Virus record (IMG/VR): IMGVR_UViG_3300044652_000022 | Coordinates: 1 to 64,000 of that record | Direction: 5' to 3' (one strand) | From: a virus | Taxonomy: Duplodnaviria; Caudoviricetes | Length of the DNA: 64,000 bases | In this document: positions 3,140 to 35,140 of the stretch, in pieces | Layout of the letters: every line of letters starts with the position of its first letter | Numbering within the stretch: the stretch's first letter is position 1 | Program-made: the position numbers and the translations under genes | Notes under the pieces: model-generated | What the model was told of the DNA's origin: nothing | Databases searched by the model: none | Seen by the model: only the letters and a program-made list of their open reading frames with translations

Positions 3140-3436
3140 ATGGCGATAGACGTGTTCATGCCAGGTACCCTGCGCGCAGCCCGGGAGATTAGCAACCTGT
3201 ACGTTTCGCTGATTTCCAAGCAATTGCGTCAGGTTGGGATTCGCATCCCTGCGGCGCAGAAAAACGACGAAGGACTGGACGATTTGGCTCGCATAATCGA
3301 GCGGCATACGGCGGTTTCGGAAATGGCGGCGGTGCTGGAGGAACTGGCGACGCTAGCGGAAAGCAGTCTGCCAAGTTTGCGGTCGTCTGACGGTGTGCTT
3401 CTCCGGGCTCGGATGGTGCTGGCGAAGATTCGGTGA
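3140..3436 (+). CDS. Hypothetical protein
   Basis: RBS GAGGAG before ATG at 3140. Confidence 0.6.
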   Translation: MAIDVFMPGTLRAAREISNLYVSLISKQLRQVGIRIPAAQKNDEGLDDLARIIERHTAVSEMAAVLEELATLAESSLPSLRSSDGVLLRARMVLAKIR

Positions 3437-3455
3437 AATTATTTTTGGAAGCGGG

Positions 3456-3484
3456 TTGACGCGCGCCTATAGTTTCCCTATAAT
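3456..3484 (+). promoter_or_regulatory. Early promoter P2
   Basis: TTGACG-17-TATAAT; ATG follows 7 nt later. Confidence 0.9.
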
Positions 3485-3491
3485 TAACAGT

Positions 3492-4634
3492 ATGAAGGTC
3501 ACCAAACAAGGCAGCTTTTACGTCGCGCAGACGGCCAACTCCGCCGAAGGCCAAGCACCCCGCAGCGCCGGGTTCCGCTGGGATCCGGCCAAGCGCGTCT
3601 GGTGGACGAAGTTCATCGAAAAAGCCTGCAAACTCGCTGCCTACGCCGACGCGACGTGCCAGAAGGAACTGACCGACTACGCCGCGCAGCATGACGCAGC
3701 GGTGGAAGCGAGCCGGGCAGAAACCGTCGCCGACGACGTGCATATCCCGGCGCCGAAGGGTCTCGAATACCTGCCCTACCAAAAAGCGGGGATCAGCTAC
3801 GCTAGCAAGCGCTTCGCCGCCGGCCAGCGCGTTTGGCTCTGCGCCGACGACATGGGCCTGGGAAAAACCATCCAGGGCGTCGGGCTGTTCAATATGAACG
3901 CCGCTATCCGGCGCGTCCTCGTTATCTGCCCCGCTTCGCTCCGCATCAATTGGAAGCGCGAGTTCGAAAAGTGGGCTGTCCGCCCCGTTACTGTCGGGAT
4001 CGCTAACGGCGTGTTCCCGGACACCGACGTTGTAATCATCAACTACGACATCCTGGAAAAATTCCACGTTCAGATCCGCGCGATTCAGTGGGACCTCATG
4101 CTCGTGGACGAAGCGCAGTACCTGAAGAATCCCAAAGCCAAGCGGACGCAGGAGGTGCTCGGGTCGAAAAAGTGGGACAAGGTGCGCAAGCTGGAAGTGG
4201 TCGAAGTCGAGCCGATCAAAGCCACGTACGCTGCGTTTCTGACGGGTACGCCGATCGTCAATCGCCCGGTGGAAGCCTGGCCGATTCTGCACTACGCAGA
4301 CCCGACGACCTGGTACAATTTCATGTCCTTCGCCAAGCGCTATTGCGGCGCCAAGCACAACGGCTACGGCTGGGACTTCAGCGGTTCGAGCAACCTCGCT
4401 GAACTCCAGGATAAACTGCGTAGCACGATCATGACGCGGCGCCTGAAGGTTGACGTTCTGAAAGAGCTTCCGGCCAAGCGCCGCCAGGTCATCGAGTTGC
4501 CCGCTGTCAACGGCGCGAAAGTCGCTCTCCAGGCGGAGCAGGAAGCGGCTGCGAAGTACCAGAAACTACAGGAAGAACTTGCGCGCCTGCAGGCGATGGG
4601 TCGTCAACTTGGATACGAAAAGGAGGTGGCGTAA
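3492..4634 (+). CDS. SNF2-family helicase, N-terminal ATPase lobe only
   Basis: DDMGLGKT (Walker A), VICPASL, VDEAQ (motif II), LTGTP (motif III); stops before motifs IV-VI. Confidence 0.9.
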   Translation: MKVTKQGSFYVAQTANSAEGQAPRSAGFRWDPAKRVWWTKFIEKACKLAAYADATCQKELTDYAAQHDAAVEASRAETVADDVHIPAPKGLEYLPYQKAGISYASKRFAAGQRVWLCADDMGLGKTIQGVGLFNMNAAIRRVLVICPASLRINWKREFEKWAVRPVTVGIANGVFPDTDVVIINYDILEKFHVQIRAIQWDLMLVDEAQYLKNPKAKRTQEVLGSKKWDKVRKLEVVEVEPIKATYAAFLTGTPIVNRPVEAWPILHYADPTTWYNFMSFAKRYCGAKHNGYGWDFSGSSNLAELQDKLRSTIMTRRLKVDVLKELPAKRRQVIELPAVNGAKVALQAEQEAAAKYQKLQEELARLQAMGRQLGYEKEVA

Positions 4635-4808
4635 ATGCCCAAAAAGTACGAAACGCGGAGGCTTCCCGAGGAGGAAGCCCTCGCCTTCATCCAGAATATG
4701 CGGTGGTTCGCAGGCATGGGACGCATTACCGCCAAGAGAAACGGAGACGGAACGGTGACGGTGCGCGCTACTCGTCACGCCTGGTCCAATTTCATATGCT
4801 ACCAGTAG
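4635..4808 (+). CDS. Small hypothetical protein
   Basis: AGGAGG RBS and TAAATG coupling to the helicase-N stop. Confidence 0.55.
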   Translation: MPKKYETRRLPEEEALAFIQNMRWFAGMGRITAKRNGDGTVTVRATRHAWSNFICYQ

Positions 4809-4827
4809 AACGCTACAGGTTTTTGCC

Positions 4828-5184
4828 ATGAACACCGAAATTCTGCTTAAACTGGGGTGGGCGCCGCCCCGCCCCGACTATCTTTTGGACGTTTGGCTGG
4901 CTCCAGGCGAGGTTCAGGCTCGTTTCGGCGCTGTCACCGCGTCATATCGCTGTCTGGAGCAGTACGAGGATGAAGCGGGGAACGAGTACGCGCGCATTGT
5001 CACGGTTGCCTGTGAGCCCTTTTGGGTGACAGGGAGCGAAGTCGCTCCGGGGCGCTGGCACGCGGTGACGGATCTGCACTTCGACCGCCTAGACGACGCG
5101 ATCCTTTACAACCTCCGCCGCCCGGCGTCGCGGGAGGAGGCAGGTGAAAAACACCCCGAAAACCGAAAACCTGCTGTTGGTTGA
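4828..5184 (+). CDS. Hypothetical protein
   Basis: 118-aa ORF in the run. Confidence 0.55.
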   Translation: MNTEILLKLGWAPPRPDYLLDVWLAPGEVQARFGAVTASYRCLEQYEDEAGNEYARIVTVACEPFWVTGSEVAPGRWHAVTDLHFDRLDDAILYNLRRPASREEAGEKHPENRKPAVG

Positions 5185-5323
5185 GGTTACATCCCCAAAC
5201 CTCGAAAACCGCTTGAATGCCCCTGAGCAGCCTTGGCGTATAACCGATCGCCAAAACTTCCGGATACCAAGTACCGGAAAATCGTTACGACGCAGCAGAA
5301 CCAGAGCTAACCGGGCTGCTCGC
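5184..5323 (+). repeat. ~140-bp structured repeat E1 (paralog of 13072-13211)
   Basis: Shares acatcccc, gcttga, gagcagc, cgtataaccgatcg, taccggaaaatcgtt, cgacgcagcag and ggctgctcgcc in the same order. Confidence 0.85.
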
Positions 5324-5359
5324 CGTCGCGATTTTCTTCCAAAATTCTCTTTGGAAGGG

Positions 5360-5389
5360 TTGACACACGCCTATAGTTTCCCTCATAAT
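5360..5389 (+). promoter_or_regulatory. Early promoter P3
   Basis: TTGACA-18-CATAAT; ATG at 5396. Confidence 0.9.
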
Positions 5390-5395
5390 TTCTAC

Positions 5396-5629
5396 ATGGC
5401 CGCTATCGAAAAACAGCCGAATGCTTACAAGGGGATGCGCCGCGTCCTTTACGGGTTTTCCACTTGGCAGGAATACGCACCGATCCTCCACCACCTGAAC
5501 GTTCTGCCGCTGGCGCAGGCGGGCAAGGTCCGCACGAGATGCGAGGACAAGCGCGGGTATTATTCGATCTTCTGCCTGGCGGAAGCGCGCGAGGCGGTTC
5601 TCGCCGCTTACAAGGAGGTGTCGAAATGA
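5396..5629 (+). CDS. Hypothetical protein (leaderless)
   Basis: ATG 6 nt after the P3 -10; ATGA overlap with the next ORF. Confidence 0.65.
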   Translation: MAAIEKQPNAYKGMRRVLYGFSTWQEYAPILHHLNVLPLAQAGKVRTRCEDKRGYYSIFCLAEAREAVLAAYKEVSK

Positions 5630-5832
5630 CGACACTCCGCACGCTGCCCAAGGATTTCGGAAAGGGATGGATGTCGTCTAACGCCGCCGACCTCTGCCGT
5701 ATCGTTACGGCGTTCACTGACGTATCTCCCGATGCGCTGGTGCGCATGATCCACCGCATTCACCCAGGCACTTGCCAGGTGAACGTCGCAACGGTTGAGC
5801 GGGCTTTGTCGATTTTGGAGGCGGAAAAATAG
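5626..5832 (+). CDS. Hypothetical protein
   Basis: AAGGAGG RBS. Confidence 0.6.
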   Translation: MTTLRTLPKDFGKGWMSSNAADLCRIVTAFTDVSPDALVRMIHRIHPGTCQVNVATVERALSILEAEK

Positions 5833-5856
5833 TTCCAAAAAATCCTTGGAACCGGG

Positions 5857-5885
5857 TTGACATTCACCTATAGTTTCCCTAGAAT
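5857..5885 (+). promoter_or_regulatory. Early promoter P4
   Basis: TTGACA-17-TAGAAT; ATG at 5895. Confidence 0.9.
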
Positions 5886-5894
5886 TATTAACGT

Positions 5895-7244
5895 ATGACG
5901 ACGCAGACACCAAACGATACCACGACTTGCGCGACGTGCGGGAAACTCGTCCGGGTCGAAGCCGCCATGAGCCGCGACGGACTCTATTGGCACCAGAGCT
6001 GTTCCGCTCCCGCTGCGACCCAGAAACCGAGCCTCACGGCTGCGGAATACGCTGCCGCTGTCGCTGCGCTGAAGTCGGCGGTTCAGGTGTCGTTCACCGA
6101 AATGTCGCGCCTCCGTCATGAGACGGCGGTGGCGAAGGTCCCGCTCGTTATCGACCACATCCAATCGTTCGTGGACGCTGGGGTGAAGGTGGTCGTGTTC
6201 GGTCACCATCATGACGTGCTCGATCCTATCGCCGCTGCGTTCCCGGGCATTTCGGTCGTTGTTGACGGCCGCGTGCCGGTGCCCAAGCGCCAGGCGAACG
6301 TTGACCGCTTCCAGAACGATCCCGATTGCCTGGTGTTCATTGGCGAGTTTCAGGCGGCTGGCACGGGCTGGACGCTGACGGCGGCTTCGAACGTCGTTTT
6401 CGCGGAGTTCGATTGGGTGCCCGGGAACATGAGCCAGTGCGAGGATCGCTGCAACCGCATCGGGCAGAAAAACGCCGTCCTCGCGCAGTACCTGGCGTTG
6501 GAGGGTTCGCTGGACGCGGTGATGGCGCACAAGCTGGTTTCGAAGGAATCGGTGATCTTCGACGCACTCGACCGCAAGCCTGAGCCTGCGCAGCCAATCA
6601 TCGTTCCTGCTGCGCCGACGACCGCTCCTTCAACGGGTTCAGTGAACCAGAATCCGCCCTCTAAGCCCGTCGTAAACGACCCGGTGCAAATCGCCGCGAT
6701 CCACGAGGCGCTTCGCCTTGTTGCTGGTGTTTGCGACGGCGCGCACATGCAGGATAACGTCGGGTTCAACGGAACGGATACGGACTTCGGGCGCCAGCTG
6801 GCGGCTCAGGATTCCATCAGCCCGCGTCAGGCGTTCGTCGCCGCGAAAATGCTTTTGAAGTATCACAAGCAGGTCGGCGCAGAGCGGATTCAGGTCTGCA
6901 AGGAGGCGATTGCGGACGCGACGGGTCAGGCGCGTCCCGCTGCTCCTGCTCCGAAGCCGGCGAAGGCTGCGAAGCCCGCTCCCGCCGCTCCGACGCAGCA
7001 GAGCCAGGCTGCTCCGCAGCAGCAACCCGCTGCTCCCAAGGGTAACCCGTACAAAGCGGGTACGCAGACGGCGAAAGCGTTCGATATCCTCTCCGACGGC
7101 CAATTTCATACGTGGGAGGAACTGAAAACTGCCAACCCAAAATGGCCCAAGGATTCGGTAATCGCAATCGCGAAGGACGCGGCTTCGATGGGCTGGACGA
7201 TCAATCGGACGAAGGAGGGCTTCCAGCTGACGCTGGGAGCCTAA
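5895..7244 (+). CDS. SNF2-family helicase, C-terminal lobe plus CDGA domain plus repeated C-terminal domain
   Basis: KVVVFGHH (IV), AAGTGWTLTAA (V), QCEDRCNRIGQ (VI). Confidence 0.88.
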   Translation: MTTQTPNDTTTCATCGKLVRVEAAMSRDGLYWHQSCSAPAATQKPSLTAAEYAAAVAALKSAVQVSFTEMSRLRHETAVAKVPLVIDHIQSFVDAGVKVVVFGHHHDVLDPIAAAFPGISVVVDGRVPVPKRQANVDRFQNDPDCLVFIGEFQAAGTGWTLTAASNVVFAEFDWVPGNMSQCEDRCNRIGQKNAVLAQYLALEGSLDAVMAHKLVSKESVIFDALDRKPEPAQPIIVPAAPTTAPSTGSVNQNPPSKPVVNDPVQIAAIHEALRLVAGVCDGAHMQDNVGFNGTDTDFGRQLAAQDSISPRQAFVAAKMLLKYHKQVGAERIQVCKEAIADATGQARPAAPAPKPAKAAKPAPAAPTQQSQAAPQQQPAAPKGNPYKAGTQTAKAFDILSDGQFHTWEELKTANPKWPKDSVIAIAKDAASMGWTINRTKEGFQLTLGA

Positions 7245-7470
7245 GGAGGTGGGCGTTGACCTGGATCGTTTTTACGATGGACGAGACGGTGGGAAAATTC
7301 TCGTTAAAGTACCAAGCCGTGGCAGCGGTGGTGGGGCGTTGCTGCGGGCGGTTGCGTGCGCGACGACTGCGTCCCGGAGCCTACGAGTACAAAAGCGAAG
7401 GCGAAAACCGCAGCCGCACGTATTGGGTGATGACCGAATACGAGGCGAAACGTGATGGGTGGGGTGGTGA

Positions 7471-9699: not shown

Positions 9700-10158
9700 A
9701 TGACGACGACGAACAACAGCAAGCGGGTGAAGTGCACGGGATGCGGGGCGCGGACGCGCCGGACGGATGGGCTCTGCGCGGCTTGCGCAGGGAAGCAAGC
9801 GGCGCCGGTGGCGACGACGCCCGAGGCGGCGGATGCGAATCCGACGGGGCCGGGGAAGCACATGGTGGCGGCAGCGACAACGCGCGCCAAGCGCCTTGCG
9901 GCGACGAACGGGCACGGGCTCAAGGGCGCGGCGCGTCTGGCGAAGCTCGATAATCCCTTCCGCCCGTCCAGCGCGCAATACGCCTATTTCGAGATCATGC
10001 GCGACGGCAAGGACCACACGTACGAGGAACTGAACAAAAAGCCGCAGGCCCGCTGGCCTAAAGACTTGGTGTGGTTTATGCTGGATCACGGCCGGAAGAA
10101 CGGTGGGTTTCGGATCATCAAGGAACGGAACACGGCTCGGATGGAGGTGTCGAAGTAG
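9700..10158 (+). CDS. Zn ribbon plus repeated C-terminal domain
   Basis: CTGC..CAAC, an Ala-rich linker, then NPFRPSS..DGKDHTYEEL..WPKD. Confidence 0.7.
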   Translation: MTTTNNSKRVKCTGCGARTRRTDGLCAACAGKQAAPVATTPEAADANPTGPGKHMVAAATTRAKRLAATNGHGLKGAARLAKLDNPFRPSSAQYAYFEIMRDGKDHTYEELNKKPQARWPKDLVWFMLDHGRKNGGFRIIKERNTARMEVSK

Positions 10159-10160
10159 CC

Positions 10161-10685
10161 ATGAGCCGACCGAAGTTTTCAGGGCGCCCATTCGCCGACA
10201 GGTTTTGGGAACAGGTGAACAAAAAGGGCGCCCTGCGGCTTCCTAAACTCGGCAGGTGTTGGGAGTGGACAGGACACGTCAATGGTGAGTACGGGTATCT
10301 CACTCGCCAGTCGGACGGAAGCGGTACAGCGAAGGAAGTCGGTGCTCACCGCGCAGCCTGGGAATTAAAATACGGTGTCACGCTGCCCTCCAATGTCCTC
10401 GTCTGCCACAAATGCGACCACGGCCTCTGTGTGCGTTGGAATCATTTGTTCCTCGGTACCTATGCAGATAACAACGCCGATGCACGCCGCAAGGATCGTC
10501 ATGCGCGCGGTGAGCGGCAATACAACCATAAACTGACCGATGCGCTTGTGCAGGAGATTCGACGCCTGCACGGCGAGGGACTCAGCTACCGAAAAATCGC
10601 CGCCAAGCTGAAAGTCGTCCATGCATCGACAATTGGCGGCGTAGTGGAAGGCGCGATTTGGCGCCATGTAAAGGAGACGAAGTGA
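10161..10685 (+). CDS. HNH (homing) endonuclease with C-terminal HTH
   Basis: CWEWTG, AHRAAW, VCHKCDHGLCVRWNHLFLGTYADNNAD. Confidence 0.9.
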   Translation: MSRPKFSGRPFADRFWEQVNKKGALRLPKLGRCWEWTGHVNGEYGYLTRQSDGSGTAKEVGAHRAAWELKYGVTLPSNVLVCHKCDHGLCVRWNHLFLGTYADNNADARRKDRHARGERQYNHKLTDALVQEIRRLHGEGLSYRKIAAKLKVVHASTIGGVVEGAIWRHVKETK

Positions 10686-11404: not shown

Positions 11405-11674
11405 ATGATCGGACCTTGCCTGTGCGGCGACACCCATTGTCCGTCTTGCGGTCCAGCGCAAGGCAATTGGCGCTGTCCGCTATGTAACGCCTGGGCGGAC
11501 GACTGCTGCGAACATATCGACGCCGAAACCGGGAAAATCAAGCCCGAGTTCGAAGCGGAGGTGGAGGCTTTGCTGAAGGCGGAGGCCGAAGCCGAAGCGC
11601 AGATGGTGGAGGAGTATTTCGAGGACGAGCGCCTCGCCGAGGAATGGGAAAAGGAGCATCCCGATGAGTTTTGA
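11405..11674 (+). CDS. Cys-rich small protein with acidic tail
   Basis: CLCGDTHCPSC..CPLC..CCEH. Confidence 0.6.
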   Translation: MIGPCLCGDTHCPSCGPAQGNWRCPLCNAWADDCCEHIDAETGKIKPEFEAEVEALLKAEAEAEAQMVEEYFEDERLAEEWEKEHPDEF

Positions 11675-12122
11675 AGTCCTACCGCGTTACTCGGGCGGTA
11701 GCCCTGCCGCCGTTGACGAACACACCGCGCGACGTGTCGCGGAAGAGGAGCGCCAAAGCTACCTGGCAGCGCTTAAAGGAGCGTACGGCGACGAACGAGC
11801 AGCGGACGCGCGCCGCGAAGGGTTGGATGGGATCGTGCTGGAGCGGCACGCCAAAGGCAACCGTGTCTGCTACACCGACGTGATTACCGGGCGCGACTAC
11901 GACGATATGCCGTACGGCGCTCTGCGCCACCCGAACGAACTCGTTCTCCAGACGACCAAGCGCTACCACATTGTCTGGTATCGTCGCGATATCCTCATCG
12001 CCCAGCCCGATCCGAAAAAAGCGGCGATGCGCTGGTGGTCGGTGGTCAGCGCGCTAGAGGAAAAATACAGGCTGACCTACGACGACGCCAAGGCGCTGTG
12101 GGACAAGGTGAGGACGGCATGA
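11664..12122 (+). CDS. Hypothetical protein
   Basis: 152-aa ORF, coupled to its neighbours. Confidence 0.6.
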   Translation: MSFEVLPRYSGGSPAAVDEHTARRVAEEERQSYLAALKGAYGDERAADARREGLDGIVLERHAKGNRVCYTDVITGRDYDDMPYGALRHPNELVLQTTKRYHIVWYRRDILIAQPDPKKAAMRWWSVVSALEEKYRLTYDDAKALWDKVRTA

Positions 12123-12817: not shown

Positions 12818-13071
12818 CGACGATACGCACGGCGACGCTACGCACGGTAGAGGATCTTCTATACGCTGTCGCTGCGCGCGCCAAGGTGCTGGCGGAGGAC
12901 AAGGTAGACAATCTTCGTGCCAGCGTCGAGACGGCCCAGGAGACGCGCGCGGCGGCGATAGCGGAGAATCGTCACAAGACCAAAGGCGACCTGATCGAGG
13001 AAATCCTGATCGAGGAATTCGAGGAAGCCGCCAAAAAATTTGGACGAAAACCTAACCCCTGAATCCTAAAG

Positions 13072-13211
13072 GGGATACATCCCCGAATCTAGAAACGGCT
13101 TGACGCAGCCCGAGCAGCTTTGACGTATAACCGATCGTTTTCCGTTCTGGATGCTACCTACCGGAAAATCGTTTCGACGCAGCAGCGCCCGGAGCAGCCC
13201 GGCTGCTCGCC
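13072..13211 (+). repeat. ~140-bp structured repeat E2
   Basis: Collinear with 5184-5323; differences fall mostly in predicted loops. Confidence 0.85.
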
Positions 13212-13361
13212 GGAATCTTCCGAACGTCGAATCTGACCGAAAATCCCCTCCTCCGTTTGCATCCCTTATCCGAACCTGTATGATGATTCCGTGCAGACAG
13301 AACAAACCCGGAGCGGCGCTGCGCTGCCAGAAAATTTTTGGAAAAAAGTTAGGTTGGTGGG

Positions 13362-14509: not shown

Positions 14510-15202
14510 ATGGTGAAAATCACAGAGGTATCTGACCCGATCCTGCGCGAAAAACTGCTGGCGCTGCGCAGCGGCACGCAGATCACCCTTTGCTATTTCC
14601 CAGTCACGCTAGAGGCGCGCATTCGGCGGGAACGCGCGACGATTACCCAAGCGCCTCGTCTGACAGAAAATGGGCGCTGGTCGGTGGAGGTGCAGCCGCC
14701 CGCCGGTTCGTTGATTCCAGGTACGGTCTGGGCAGCGATCCGCTTTGATCCCAATTCCCAGATTCCCGACGGCATCTGGGTCGAAACGTGGGCGCCGGAA
14801 ACACGCTGGACGAAGCCGCGCCCAGACGGGAAACCGTATTCGCGGACAGAGCCCTGCGAGTGCGCCCATTGCGACCACGTGTACTCGGGTTTCGATCAAT
14901 TGGAAATCATCAGACATTGCCGCGAACACCACCGCGCGTTCTACCGCCATAAATGGGAGACGGAATTGGCTAATCGCGCGACCGTGGACCAGAGCTACGC
15001 GCCGCTGCCCGAGTTCGAAACGGAGAATCTGGGTAGCGGCTTTCAGCTAGTCTGGCAGCGGTCGGTGAAAAGCAACCAGGTGCGCGCGGTGATAAAGGAC
15101 AGCGCCGGGACGATACGCGCGCGGGGCGACGTGATGCCCGAGGAACGCGCGATGCTTTCGCGGCAGTCGGCGCTGTATGCGTTCTTTCGCGGAGGTCGAT
15201 AA
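14510..15202 (+). CDS. Hypothetical protein with C2H2-like motif
   Basis: CAHCDH...RHCREHH; GAGG RBS. Confidence 0.6.
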   Translation: MVKITEVSDPILREKLLALRSGTQITLCYFPVTLEARIRRERATITQAPRLTENGRWSVEVQPPAGSLIPGTVWAAIRFDPNSQIPDGIWVETWAPETRWTKPRPDGKPYSRTEPCECAHCDHVYSGFDQLEIIRHCREHHRAFYRHKWETELANRATVDQSYAPLPEFETENLGSGFQLVWQRSVKSNQVRAVIKDSAGTIRARGDVMPEERAMLSRQSALYAFFRGGR

Positions 15203-15209
15203 CGACAAA

Positions 15210-15818
15210 ATGCCACCCACTCTGTCTCCAACCGAAATCGAAGCGGTACGGGCTGCGGACAAGATGGAGGAGTTGGTCTACGAAAACGGCGCGCGGGTGG
15301 CGGTGGACGGACACAACCGCCGCCTGTTCGCGTCAGGCGGTGAGGCGTCGTTCCGCAGTCTTTGGGAGCAGGCGCTCCTGATCCGAAAAAAGCCCAGCAA
15401 AAACGAACGAAACGGACACGGACACAATATGCCATCCACCGATTGGAAAGAGAAGGCTCGCCAGCGCCTGCAGGAAAAAGCGGTCGAGGTCGAATCGTCT
15501 GAGGAGCAACAACAACCGAAAAAGCCCAAGCCACCTGCTGCGCCAGCCAAGATGGCAGCGACGGCTGCAAAAGTCGCGGCGGCGCGGGTGGGGCAATCCG
15601 CAGCGAAACTCGCGAATCCCTGCCGTCCTGGGTCCCAGTTGGCGCAAGCGTTCGATCTTCTGACGGACGGGCGCTTGCACGAATGGGAAGAGTTCCGCGC
15701 AATCAATCCCAAGTACCCGAAAGATCCCGCCGCCAACCTCTCCCGCGATCCCGAAGTCGCCAAGCATTGGACGATCATTCGCGGACCGGAGGGGGCGCAG
15801 ATGGTAGCCAAAAAATAA
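15210..15818 (+). CDS. Hypothetical protein with repeated C-terminal domain
   Basis: NPCRPGS..DGRLHEWEEF..KYPKD. Confidence 0.7.
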   Translation: MPPTLSPTEIEAVRAADKMEELVYENGARVAVDGHNRRLFASGGEASFRSLWEQALLIRKKPSKNERNGHGHNMPSTDWKEKARQRLQEKAVEVESSEEQQQPKKPKPPAAPAKMAATAAKVAAARVGQSAAKLANPCRPGSQLAQAFDLLTDGRLHEWEEFRAINPKYPKDPAANLSRDPEVAKHWTIIRGPEGAQMVAKK

Positions 15819-15859: not shown

Positions 15860-15885
15860 TTTTCATGTAGGAGGCGTTGACGACG

Positions 15886-16905
15886 ATGGCAGCAAAATTG
15901 AAGGCACCCAAGACAGCGGAACTGAAAAAGGCGTTGGAGGGCTTGCTAGCCGCCTCTCCGACCAATCGCGTGAAGGCGCTCACGGCGGCGGTGCAGTGGT
16001 ACGACGCAGCCCTGCCGTATTTCATCCAGAACGTGCGCCTCGATCCGTCCAAACAAAAATTGTACGATCTGGCTACCAAGACCCGTTCGCAAGCGAACGG
16101 AACGAACCTCGTCCACGAGCAGGAAGTGGCGCTGAAGTCTACGGTTCAGTTGCTCGAAAAAGTCTGGAAGGACGCGGTGCCCAACCTGCCGTCGTCCGTG
16201 GACGCATACGCGGAATATCAGAAGCGCCGGGCGGCGCTGGAGGCTCAGGAAGCGGCGAACAAAGCGAAATACCAAGCCGTCGTCAACCTCCTCAATTTGG
16301 CGTTTGGCGGCGCTAACCTGAAGGTTTCGGTAATCGAGAGCCAGCAACCGCGCGCGATTGATTTCGGTGACGCGGGCGAGGTGAAAATCGTTCTCGGCGA
16401 CCAGCACGTCGCGGAACTGTCGAAGGTCCTGCAGCGGCAGGGTCCGCTGGACGTGATTTTCTCGGAGGTGTCGTACGCGGCGCGGGCGATGGGCGTGACC
16501 TCGACAAACAACGGGCCGGCGCTCGATCCCAAAGCCGTTGTCGCAAAACTTCCGACGTTGTTCGCCGGGATGCACACGGCTCTGAAGGGTGCGAAGGCGG
16601 CGAAGCCTGCTGTTACGAGGACCGCTGCTGCGCAGCAGCCCGGCGCTGCTGCGACGACGCCCACCCGCTCCGCTCCTGCGTCCAGCGGACCGCTCGTTGG
16701 CGGACTCTACAAGCCCGGAACAAACAACGCTATCGCGTTCCAGTTCCTCAGCGACCAGAAGTATCACACGTGGCAGGAAATCGCGCAGGGCACGGGCGCG
16801 AAGTACCCGAAAGACGGCCCGTACTACATCGGGAAGGACGGAGCGAAGAACGGCAAGTGGACGGTGCGGAAAGATAAGCACGGCGTCCAGCTGATCTTCA
16901 ACTAG
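15886..16905 (+). CDS. Hypothetical helical protein with repeated C-terminal domain
   Basis: ~340 aa; LYKPGT..SDQKYHTWQEI..KYPKD. Confidence 0.75.
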   Translation: MAAKLKAPKTAELKKALEGLLAASPTNRVKALTAAVQWYDAALPYFIQNVRLDPSKQKLYDLATKTRSQANGTNLVHEQEVALKSTVQLLEKVWKDAVPNLPSSVDAYAEYQKRRAALEAQEAANKAKYQAVVNLLNLAFGGANLKVSVIESQQPRAIDFGDAGEVKIVLGDQHVAELSKVLQRQGPLDVIFSEVSYAARAMGVTSTNNGPALDPKAVVAKLPTLFAGMHTALKGAKAAKPAVTRTAAAQQPGAAATTPTRSAPASSGPLVGGLYKPGTNNAIAFQFLSDQKYHTWQEIAQGTGAKYPKDGPYYIGKDGAKNGKWTVRKDKHGVQLIFN

Positions 16906-20296: not shown

Positions 20297-20378
20297 GCTG
20301 CGTAACGTAGCGCCTTCCCTCCCTCTTCCCTTCCGTTCTCCTCCTTCCGACGCAGCAGAGCCAGAGCTAACGCGAGCA
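20297..20378 (+). repeat. Dispersed repeat copy
   Basis: cgcagcagagccagagctaacgcgagc; 9-bp inverted repeat ctgctgcgt/acgcagcag. Confidence 0.8.
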
Positions 20379-35064: not shown

Positions 35065-35140
35065 TGGGGCATAGCTCAAGCGGCAGAGCGCCGGACCTTG
35101 ATTCCGGAGGTTGCAGGTTCGAAGCCTGCTGCCCCAGCCA
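35065..35140 (+). tRNA. tRNA-Gln(UUG)
   Basis: 76 nt; TGGGGCA/TGCCCCA acceptor stem, D arm GCTC/GAGC, anticodon arm CCGGA-CCTTGAT-TCCGG, TTCGAAG loop, encoded CCA. Confidence 0.9.

What the first reader, a model, noticed from the sequence alone, without database searches (positions are those of the whole stretch)
3492..7244. SNF2 helicase naturally split into two separately promoted genes
Lobe 1 (motifs I-III) ends at 4634. Lobe 2 (motifs IV-VI) starts at 5895 behind its own boxed promoter and a new CxxC..H..C N-terminus. Four unrelated ORFs, repeat E1 and two promoters lie between them. The break falls in the helical inter-lobe linker, both halves look intact, and no intein or intron hallmarks are visible. 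This suggests a heterodimeric helicase rather than a pseudogene.
Basis: partly seen in the sequence, partly recalled or inferred. Interest (0 to 1): 0.75.

Follow-up and report, generated by a model that had tools for sequence, protein, structure and literature searches.

The report
Phage SNF2 motor encoded in two genes
An uncultured phage encodes its only SNF2-type DNA motor as two separate genes cut inside the second motor lobe. A second, diverged phage keeps the same cut, so this is probably a working two-piece enzyme rather than a broken gene.

Summary
ORF 3492-4634 (380 aa) carries SNF2 motifs I-III. ORF 5895-7244 (449 aa) carries motifs IV-VI. Together they cover a 647-position profile of full-length homologues with nothing missing.

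Between them lie 1.26 kb holding four small ORFan genes with a coding signal, a terminator-like repeat and two copies of the phage's early promoter. No intron, intein, flanking repeat or second SNF2 copy was found. Frame 0 has 16 stops between the halves.

All 118 nearest database homologues and 41 of 42 viral-contig loci are single genes.

The cut is not between the lobes. It lies about 50 residues into lobe 2, at the turn of a long helical hairpin. Ino80, Swr1 and SRCAP carry their large insert at this site. The N half therefore supplies lobe 2's first strand and one hairpin helix.

The key new evidence is P0122, from an independent assembly. It is a 438-aa stand-alone C half, 65% identical to the window's. 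It has the same start, the same new C-x2-C-x17-H-x2-C tail and a fully canonical lobe 2.

This argues for a maintained, non-covalently assembled two-chain ATPase (confidence about 0.65). Assembly and activity are untested. It is a new variant of phage "genes in pieces".

The parts
3456..3484 (+). Early promoter of the N-half unit (-35 TTGACG, conserved CCTATAGTTT spacer box, -10 TATAAT). The ATG lies 7 nt after the -10, so the mRNA is leaderless or nearly so.
3492..4634 (+). SNF2 N-half gene (380 aa). It holds an N-terminal domain with the GFRWD motif (DUF5710-like in homologues) and RecA-like lobe 1. Motifs: I (GLGKT, 3846-3869), Ia (CPASL), II (DEAQ, 4104-4118) and III (TGTP). It continues into the first roughly 55 residues of lobe 2.
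4461..4631 (+). The part of lobe 2 carried by the N half. It comprises the strand KELPAKRRQVIELPA (4461-4505), hairpin helix alpha-1 (4509-4613) and a 6-residue end, YEKEVA.
   Evidence: The AF2 model of homologue P0002 has strand 324-331, helix 337-365, turn 366-369 and helix 370-417. The lobe-2-only crystal chain 5jxt_K aligns from model residue 320. Lobe-1-only chains end at 318-319.
4635..4808 (+). orfA (57 aa). Its ATG abuts the N-half stop codon and its Shine-Dalgarno site (AAGGAGGT) lies inside the N half's last codons. It has no family match and a weak paralogue at 11664-12122.
4828..5184 (+). orfB (118 aa), an ORFan. It has a coding signal and no nuclease or other domain.
5157..5335 (+). 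Non-coding repeat 'E1', about 75-80% like 13046-13215. It ends in a long hairpin (5279-5333) followed by a U-rich run. It is the probable terminator of the N-half transcription unit.
   Evidence: folding energy z = -3.5
5360..5389 (+). Early promoter of the orfC-orfD unit (TTGACA ... CATAAT). The ATG lies 6 nt after the -10.
5396..5629 (+). orfC (77 aa). It has a coding signal and no family match.
5626..5832 (+). orfD (68 aa). It is translationally coupled to orfC and has no family match.
5857..5885 (+). Early promoter of the C-half unit (TTGACA ... TAGAAT), preceded by an A/T-rich palindrome at 5832-5852. The ATG lies 9 nt after the -10.
5895..7244 (+). SNF2 C-half gene (449 aa). Order of parts: new tail, hairpin helix alpha-2, rest of lobe 2 (motifs IV-VI), family-specific helical tail domain, Pro/Ala linker, winged-helix domain.
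5895..6038 (+). Lineage-specific 48-residue N-terminal tail, with C-x2-C-x17-H-x2-C at residues 12-36 (5928-6002). All four putative ligands and the RDGxYWH stretch are conserved in P0122. There is a weak match to the first LIM zinc finger (E 0.046, below cut-off).
6042..6572 (+). Hairpin helix alpha-2 (6042-6182) and the lobe-2 core. Motifs: IV (VKVVVFGHHH, 6183-6212), V (FQAAGTGWTLTAAS, 6348-6389) and VI (QCEDRCNRIGQ, 6435-6467).
   Evidence: The fold matches SNF2 lobe 2 of SWR1, SRCAP, INO80 and Fun30.
7044..7241 (+). C-terminal winged-helix-like domain of about 65 aa (H-H-H-strand-strand). It is also the C-terminus of ORFs 9700-10158, 15177-15818 and 15877-16905, and it is retained in P0122.

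Best explanation
This is a real, evolutionarily maintained 'gene in pieces'. The phage's single SNF2-family ATPase is made as two polypeptides, and they most likely reassemble without covalent joining.

How the gene was cut (shown). A 1.26-kb block interrupted an ancestral single gene. The block holds four small early genes, a terminator-like repeat and two early promoters. The break is at the turn of the long helical hairpin that projects from RecA-like lobe 2.

What each chain carries (shown). Chain 1 has the N-terminal domain, lobe 1 (ATP-binding motifs I-III), the first beta-strand of lobe 2 and hairpin helix alpha-1. Chain 2 has a new Zn-knuckle-like tail, hairpin helix alpha-2, the rest of lobe 2 (motifs IV-VI with the arginine fingers), the family's helical tail domain and a winged-helix domain.

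How it is expressed (inferred). Each gene heads its own transcription unit, driven by the same early promoter class and read as a leaderless or nearly leaderless mRNA. The two chains should therefore appear together.

How it assembles (inferred). Chain 1's strand slots into chain 2's lobe-2 sheet and the two hairpin helices pack antiparallel. This rebuilds a normal two-lobe motor. The conserved Zn-like tail may help docking, as the tails do in the split NrdA of phage Aeh1.
For: (1) The halves are complementary. Together they cover 642 of 647 profile positions, with no loss and no real overlap.

(2) The halves share one origin. Their distance profiles to 207 intact relatives agree as well as the two lobes of an intact protein do (rho 0.41; family 0.43 +/- 0.12). 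No other SNF2 copy is in the 75-kb genome.

(3) The break sits at a permissive site. It is the hairpin turn in a pLDDT-90 model of a homologue. SRCAP, SWR1 and INO80 carry inserts of up to about 1,170 residues at the same place (PMC7445562).

(4) The split is conserved. P0122 comes from another data source and is a singleton on a 2,570-nt contig. It is a stand-alone C half that starts with Met at the same position and has the same tail and C-terminal domain. Overall identity is 65%. Folded parts are 77-82% identical and linkers 40-48%. All four Zn-ligand positions are kept. It has no deviation at 43 lobe-2 columns that are at least 95% conserved.

(5) The N half looks selected. It has no stop in 380 codons and keeps 51 of 53 invariant residues. 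Its lobe-1 identity to the family is typical.

(6) Expression signals match. Both halves sit behind the same conserved promoter, with start codons 7 and 9 nt after the -10. Eight of the 12 promoters have this arrangement.

(7) There is precedent. The Aeh1 NrdA-a/NrdA-b fragments are active, and their new tails are essential (PMC3045599).
Against: No interaction, expression or activity data exist.

Only one relative with the split is known. Only its C half was found, as a protein without DNA context. No N half above 57% identity turned up.

The window's C half has 5 substitutions at 35 lobe-2 columns that are at least 98% conserved. The family mean is 0.16 and the maximum is 2. One of them is motif VI His to Asn. 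The N half has DEAQ instead of the invariant DEAH. Its Helicase_C score is 31 bits, against 48-57 bits for three homologues. This particular phage's copy may therefore be drifting or altered.

The homologue set was chosen by similarity to the N half, which may exaggerate the asymmetry between the halves.
Confidence: 0.65

Rival explanations
1. The split lineage once had a working two-chain enzyme, but the copy in this phage is losing or has lost ATPase function. Constraint is relaxed and the gene is an early-stage pseudogene, or it has only a structural role.
For: The window's C half deviates at 5 of 35 family-invariant lobe-2 columns (6 of 43 at the 95% threshold), while P0122 deviates at none. 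Motif II is DEAQ and motif VI is RCNRIGQ. Its lobe-2 identity to the family is in the lowest 5 of 118. Its Pfam Helicase_C score is weak.
Against: Both ORFs are intact and have strong codon-usage signals. Walker A, Walker B (DE), TGTP, motif IV and both motif VI arginines are present. The substitutions are conservative in type (His to Gln, Asn or Tyr; Leu to Phe; Val to Ala or Thr). Both promoters and start sites are intact.
Confidence: 0.15
2. The two products no longer work together. The C half acts alone as a DNA-binding or adaptor protein through its winged-helix and Zn-like modules. The N half acts separately or is dispensable.
For: The C half gained two extra modules, the Zn-like tail and the winged helix. 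The winged helix is shared with at least three unrelated early proteins. The two genes are in different transcription units.
Against: Motifs IV-VI matter only next to an ATP-loaded lobe 1, yet P0122 keeps every invariant lobe-2 residue. The C half lacks lobe 2's first beta-strand, which only the N half provides. The N half is as conserved as intact family members.
Confidence: 0.1
3. The halves are rejoined by splicing, by DNA rearrangement or by read-through. Candidate mechanisms are a split intein, a group I or II intron, programmed excision and translational bypass.
For: Phage 'fractured genes' with split inteins are known (PMC2677866). The C-half tail of about 34 aa ends in HQ-S, which superficially recalls the end of a C-intein.
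Against: No Hint or intein domain appears in either half or in the gap ORFs, even at E <= 10. The N-half remainder beyond the family profile is 16 residues with no Cys or Ser nucleophile. Rfam finds no intron; its only hit is RT-19 at E 0.11. The gap holds four coding ORFs and two promoters. Frame 0 has 16 stops between the halves. No direct repeat flanks the gap.
Confidence: 0.03
4. The split is an assembly or chimerism artefact of this metagenomic contig.
For: The genome is a single uncultured contig, and reads could not be mapped here.
Against: P0122, from an independent assembly, has the same start and the same tail. The gap has the same promoters and codon usage as the rest of the genome. 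The C half has a bespoke promoter, start codon and tail, which a misjoin would not create.
Confidence: 0.02

Closest known systems
Aeromonas phage Aeh1 NrdA-a / NrdA-b (ribonucleotide reductase split by mobE; Friedrich 2007, Crona 2010, PMC3045599)
   Same: A phage enzyme gene is cut into two separately translated ORFs by inserted DNA. There is no RNA or protein splicing. New tail sequence sits at the break. In Aeh1 the pieces reassemble into an active enzyme and the tails are essential.
   Different: The enzyme is different. Here the insert carries no recognisable homing endonuclease. Instead it holds four ORFans plus two promoters and a terminator-like repeat, so the halves lie in separate transcription units. 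Reassembly has not been tested here.
Ino80 / Swr1 / SRCAP 'split ATPase' remodellers (PMC7445562; PDB 6igm, 6gej, 8av6)
   Same: They belong to the same SNF2 motor family. The chain is interrupted at the same structural site: after the LPxK strand and inside the lobe-2 helical protrusion. The homologue P0002 aligns to SRCAP as 112-330 with 638-858 and 384-549 with 2028-2191, which brackets the break at 366-369.
   Different: The eukaryotic proteins remain one polypeptide, and their insert is a functional RuvBL-binding domain. Here the chain is actually severed, and the intervening DNA encodes unrelated proteins.
Full-length phage SNF2 helicases of PHROG 62 with a DUF5710-like N-terminus (for example in Thermus phage MN1, Rhodothermus phage RM378, Microcystis phage Mwe-JY26 and many uncultured phages)
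   Same: They are 40-57% identical. The N-terminal domain, motor and helical tail domain occur in the same order.
   Different: All 118 top database homologues and 41 of 42 IMG/VR loci are single ORFs. They lack the Zn-like tail at the hairpin and the C-terminal winged helix.
Split-intein 'fractured genes' of marine phages (Dassa 2009, PMC2677866)
   Same: A phage DNA-metabolism gene is broken into two ORFs, with other genes in between.
   Different: Those loci carry N- and C-intein halves and a free-standing endonuclease, and the protein is re-ligated. None of these features is present here.

Membership tests
SNF2-family ATPase (Pfam SNF2-rel_dom + Helicase_C) | Lobe 1 with motifs I, Ia, II and III | tested here: met
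   PF00176 matches at E 3e-32. GLGKT, CPASL, DEAQ and TGTP are present. Motif II has Gln in place of the family-invariant His.
SNF2-family ATPase (Pfam SNF2-rel_dom + Helicase_C) | Lobe 2 with motifs IV, V and VI, including both arginines of motif VI | tested here: met
   PF00271 matches at E 3e-7, 31 bits, above the 23.5-bit cut-off. FGHHH, TLTAAS and EDRCNRIGQ are present. The fold matches SNF2 lobe 2.
SNF2-family ATPase (Pfam SNF2-rel_dom + Helicase_C) | Both lobes on one polypeptide | tested here: not met
   There are two ORFs 1,260 nt apart, with 16 in-frame stops between them.
Phage 'genes in pieces' caused by homing-endonuclease insertion (Aeh1 nrdA/mobE type) | A gene fragmented into two separately translated ORFs that together equal the intact homologue | tested here: met
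   Profile coverage is 1-351 plus 348-644 of 647 positions.
Phage 'genes in pieces' caused by homing-endonuclease insertion (Aeh1 nrdA/mobE type) | A free-standing homing endonuclease gene in the gap | tested here: not met
   None of the four gap ORFs has a Pfam or PHROG match, even at E <= 10. orfB is an ORFan among 5.8 billion proteins. An HNH gene exists elsewhere in the genome, at 10071-10685.
Phage 'genes in pieces' caused by homing-endonuclease insertion (Aeh1 nrdA/mobE type) | The fragments reassemble into an active enzyme | not testable with these tools
   This needs co-expression, pull-down and ATPase assays.
Split-intein fractured gene | An N-intein with a Cys or Ser nucleophile at the end of the first fragment, and a C-intein ending in His-Asn at the start of the second | tested here: not met
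   No Hint or intein domain was found. The 16-residue N-half remainder has no Cys or Ser. The two tails together are too short for a Hint fold.
Group I / group II intron | A structured self-splicing RNA spanning the gap | tested here: not met
   Rfam at E <= 1 gives only RT-19 (24 bits, where the gathering score is 78). The gap is filled with coding ORFs and promoters.
Ino80/Swr1-type split ATPase | An interruption at the lobe-2 protrusion site, after the LPxK strand | tested here: met
   The SRCAP alignment brackets the break. The hairpin turn is in the AF2 model. INO80 and SRCAP are among the best structural matches, at Z 23-25.
Ino80/Swr1-type split ATPase | One polypeptide whose insert binds the RuvBL hexamer | tested here: not met
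   The chain is severed, and the gap encodes unrelated small proteins.

The most novel reading that the evidence does not exclude
This would be an obligate two-subunit SNF2 motor in which assembly itself is the point of control. The lineage-specific Zn-knuckle tail on the C half would act as a docking or checkpoint module. The winged helix, which several early proteins share, would park the C half on a common target (phage or host DNA, or a host factor). The ATP-binding N half would then be recruited only there. That would make it the first natural SNF2 enzyme whose catalytic cleft is built from two gene products.
Probability: 0.25. Interest if true: 0.65.

Novelty: new variant of a known kind. 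Interest (0 to 1): 0.5.

Why it matters
SNF2 motors work by tight coupling of two RecA-like lobes on one chain. A natural enzyme cut inside lobe 2 and kept that way across two diverged phage lineages would matter in three ways.

- It would show that the site where Ino80 and Swr1 carry their insert tolerates even a broken backbone.
- It would provide a ready-made split-remodeller scaffold for studying lobe coupling or for engineering.
- It would add a case of phage gene fragmentation without a homing endonuclease or intein, perhaps caused by shuffling of promoter-bounded early-gene cassettes.

It also warns annotators that an 'SNF2 N-terminal only' ORF and a 'Helicase_C only' ORF lying apart in a phage genome can be one enzyme.

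Tried and rejected
- **Intron.** An Rfam scan of 3300-7400 at E <= 1 found only a sub-threshold RT-19 hit.
- **Intein or in-frame insert.** No Hint domain was found. The N tail has no nucleophile. Frame 0 has 16 stops between the halves.
- **Target-site duplication or excision repeats.** Local DNA and protein alignments of the two break ends score no better than shuffles. The apparent Y-x-x-x-V overlap seen in the MAFFT alignment is not supported.
- **Homing endonuclease in the gap.** None was found.
- **Second intact SNF2 copy in the genome.** None was found.
- **Close relatives of the phage.**
  - Megablast against GenBank phages found nothing.
  - tblastn gave at most 51% identity.
  - The promoter pattern found nothing in IMG/VR and one chance hit in metagenomes (L044, no similarity).
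  - P0122-like loci are absent from IMG/VR.
- **N half of the P0122 phage.** It was not found among proteins of near or shorter length.
- **Origin from two different paralogues.** The idea was that the C half came from a Zn-knuckle-type SNF2 such as P0139 or P0191. The tail similarity is only weak (p 0.005-0.4). Lobe 2 is not close to those proteins (ranks 108 and 191 of 207). The affinities of the two halves are congruent. The idea is rejected as unsupported.
- **AF2 helix for C-half residues 12-42.** This is distrusted, because the supplied alignment put homologues' unrelated residues over the tail.
- **Other short C-half-like hits.** P0131, P0148, P0152, P0171 and P0198 start at the conserved Met of the MVRRLK stretch. 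P0131 and P0148 lie on contigs of about 1.1-1.3 kb. They are fragments, not splits.
- **Caulobacter phage BL57.** Its two overlapping CDS look like a frameshift inside lobe 1, not a comparable split.

Full report
**Setting.** The window is the first 64 kb of a single 75,153-bp contig treated as a virus record. It has no close relative among GenBank phages. Its large terminase is at most 49% identical to those of actinophages. Earlier notes of this scan also call it an uncultured phage.

**Observation.**
- ORF 3492-4634 (380 aa) matches Pfam SNF2-rel_dom (E 3e-32) and PHROG 62 positions 656-947.
- ORF 5895-7244 (449 aa) matches Helicase_C and PHROG 62 positions 980-1129.
- I built a profile from 118 full-length homologues (647 positions). 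The N half aligns to positions 1-351 and the C half to 348-644. Five scattered positions are uncovered, and the five positions covered twice are low-confidence alignment ends.
- The genome has no other ORF matching this profile.
- The two ORFs are therefore the two parts of the phage's only SNF2 gene, with nothing lost.

**The gap (4635-5894).**
- Four ORFs (4635-4808, 4828-5184, 5396-5629, 5626-5832) each score positively for the phage's codon usage in their own frame only. Their GC3 is 0.67-0.77, and 5144-5395 is non-coding.
- None matches Pfam or PHROGs, even at E <= 10. orfB has no relative among 5.8 billion proteins. No nuclease is present.
- The non-coding stretch is one copy of a repeat also found at 13046-13215. 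It ends in a long hairpin followed by a U-rich run, with a folding z-score of -3.5. It is probably the terminator of the N-half unit.
- Two copies of the phage's early promoter follow, at 5360 and 5857, and a third precedes the N half at 3456.
- Twelve such promoters lie between 2.7 and 25.4 kb, all on the + strand. In eight of them a start codon lies 5-9 nt after the -10 hexamer. These include the starts at 3492, 5396 and 5895, which implies leaderless or nearly leaderless mRNAs and fixes the start of each half.

**Ways of rejoining the halves are excluded.**
- Rfam finds no intron.
- No Hint or intein domain is present. The N-half remainder beyond the profile is 16 residues without Cys or Ser.
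- The shared reading frame has 16 stops between the halves.
- The two break ends share no repeat above chance.

**Where the cut lies.**
- An AlphaFold2 model of the nearest homologue, P0002, has pLDDT 90. It shows strand 324-331 (LPAKRRQVIE), helix 337-365, a four-residue turn at 366-369, helix 370-417 and then the motif IV strand.
- The N half ends and the C half resumes at that turn.
- Structural alignment places the lobe boundary earlier. Lobe-1-only chains align to model residues up to 318-319. The lobe-2-only crystal chain 5jxt_K aligns from residue 320.
- The N half therefore carries about 55 residues of lobe 2: its first strand and one helix of the hairpin (nt 4461-4631).
- By sequence, the best solved relatives are SRCAP, SWR1 and INO80. 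SRCAP aligns to P0002 as two blocks, 112-330 and 384-549, separated in SRCAP by about 1,170 residues. The phage break therefore falls at the site of the well-known insert of these 'split ATPase' remodellers (PMC7445562).

**Is it maintained?**
- All 118 nearest database homologues (at most 57% identical) are single proteins with both domains.
- In 41 of 42 IMG/VR loci the two lobes are contiguous in one frame.
- An exhaustive HMMER search of 1.84 billion representatives with the C half found one much closer protein, P0122 (438 aa, E 3e-173).
- P0122 is a singleton from a different source (Logan) on a 2,570-nt contig.
- It begins with Met at the same position and has the same N-terminal tail. 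Compare CASCGRFVRLDGAMRRDGMYWHAAC with the window's CATCGKLVRVEAAMSRDGLYWHQSC. It also has the same order of lobe 2, tail domain, Pro/Ala linker and winged helix.
- Identity is 65% overall and uneven. It is 77-82% in the hairpin helix, lobe-2 core and tail domain, and 40-48% in the linkers. It is 60% in the Zn-like motif, with all four ligand positions kept.
- P0122 deviates at none of 43 lobe-2 columns that are at least 95% conserved in the family.
- A stand-alone C half thus exists in a second, well-diverged genome and shows the pattern expected of purifying selection. This also rules out misassembly.
- If the split predates that divergence, as the shared start and tail suggest, then the window's N half has also been kept by selection. 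It has 380 codons without a stop, keeps 51 of 53 invariant residues and has typical family identity.
- The two halves have congruent affinities to 207 intact relatives (rho 0.41; family 0.43 +/- 0.12). This fits one ancestral gene rather than two paralogues.

**Caveats.**
- The window's own C half is unusual. It has five substitutions at 35 columns that are at least 98% conserved, where the family mean is 0.16 and the maximum is 2. One of them is motif VI His to Asn.
- The N half has DEAQ in place of DEAH.
- Walker A and B, TGTP, motif IV and both motif VI arginines are intact.
- These changes could be compensatory, or they could be a sign of drift in this one phage.
- The homologue set was picked by N-half similarity, which may inflate the asymmetry.
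- The N half of the P0122 phage was not found.
- AlphaFold's helix for C-half residues 12-42 probably reflects a misaligned input alignment. The C-x2-C-x17-H-x2-C spacing and a weak LIM-finger match (E 0.046) point to a small zinc knuckle instead.

**Mechanism proposed.**
- Shown: the gene is cut at a loop that other family members use for large inserts; both parts are intact; and the cut form is conserved.
- Inferred: both parts are made early from the same promoter class. The N-half strand completes the C half's lobe-2 sheet and the two hairpin helices pack together, which restores a two-lobe ATPase. The conserved new tail may aid docking, as the insertion-derived tails do in the split NrdA of phage Aeh1, where they are essential for activity (PMC3045599).
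- The C-terminal winged helix is shared with at least three other early proteins. It may bring them all to a common target.

**Comparison and novelty.**
- Phage genes in pieces are known. Examples are Aeh1 nrdA (PMC3045599) and split-intein fractured genes (PMC2677866). From my own knowledge, the T4 topoisomerase genes 39 and 60 are another case.
- SNF2 ATPases with an insert at this site are also known, but they are single chains.
- Full-text searches found no report of a naturally two-chain SNF2 motor. This is not proof that none exists.
- I file this as a new variant of a known kind. It is a severed SNF2 motor, cut inside lobe 2, with no endonuclease or intein in the gap. The gap instead holds a block of promoter-bounded early genes.

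**Verdict.** Interest is 0.5.

Noticed in passing
window 2701-25427 (+), -35 boxes at 2701, 3456, 5360, 5857, 9178, 12421, 13362, 15830, 19606, 20714, 23531, 25399: Twelve sigma-70-like promoters share an invariant CCTATAGTTT box inside the spacer. In eight of them the start codon lies 5-9 nt after the -10, so the mRNA would be leaderless. The other four have a Shine-Dalgarno leader. A conserved spacer suggests that a phage or host factor reads it.
   Followed up: partly
window 5832-5852, and similar sequences just upstream of the -35 at about 3440, 5340, 9158 and 15808: An A/T-rich palindrome (TTCCAAAAAA..TTGGAA) abuts several of the promoters. It could be an operator, an UP element or a weak bidirectional hairpin.
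   Followed up: no
window 5157-5335 and 13046-13222; the core is also at 20342-20371 and 60640-61: A repeat of about 170 nt with conserved hairpins lies at the 3' ends of early transcription units. The 5250-5345 copy folds with a z-score of -3.5. It looks like a terminator or processing site, or possibly a small RNA.
   Followed up: partly
window 7044-7241, 9949-10155, 15612-15815, 16699-16902: The same winged-helix-like domain of about 65 aa ends at least four unrelated early proteins, each time after a Pro/Ala/Lys-rich linker. AF2 and Atlas structure matches point to BirA-N, Trans_reg_C and ScpB-type winged helices.
   Followed up: partly
window 10071-10685 (+): A free-standing HNH endonuclease gene (PHROG 1872 and 59, E 1e-21 to 1e-23) lies in the early region. 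It is not in the SNF2 gap.
   Followed up: no
proteins P0139, P0191, P0277, P0288, P0316 (relatives from elsewhere): A subset of SNF2 proteins in this family begins with a C-x2-C-x20-H-x2-C knuckle at residue 11 instead of the DUF5710-like domain; two are full-length and three are N-terminal fragments. It weakly resembles the window's C-half tail (p 0.005-0.4).
   Followed up: partly
protein P0158 (369 aa, NCBI/ENA, contig 55.7 kb): This is a C-half-like protein that starts at MLTELPDK, just before the LPxK strand, on a long contig. It may be an independent split at the true lobe boundary, or a frameshift. Its locus could not be fetched.
   Followed up: partly
L037 6001-7728 (IMGVR_UViG_3300012363_000001): In this viral contig the family's helical tail domain lies upstream of the SNF2 N-lobe rather than after lobe 2. 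This may be a domain permutation.
   Followed up: no
L001 2426-4350 (Caulobacter phage BL57, PQ287320.1): The SNF2 helicase here is annotated as two overlapping CDS, which looks like a frameshift within lobe 1, unlike its sister phages.
   Followed up: no
window 4632-4637: orfA starts on the base after the N-half TAA stop and is in the same frame. Read-through of that stop would add 57 unrelated residues. This is probably coincidence with translational coupling.
   Followed up: no
window 35065-35140: A tRNA-Gln (anticodon UUG) lies just upstream of, and overlaps, the longest-ORF start of the large terminase gene. The true terminase start must be later.
   Followed up: no
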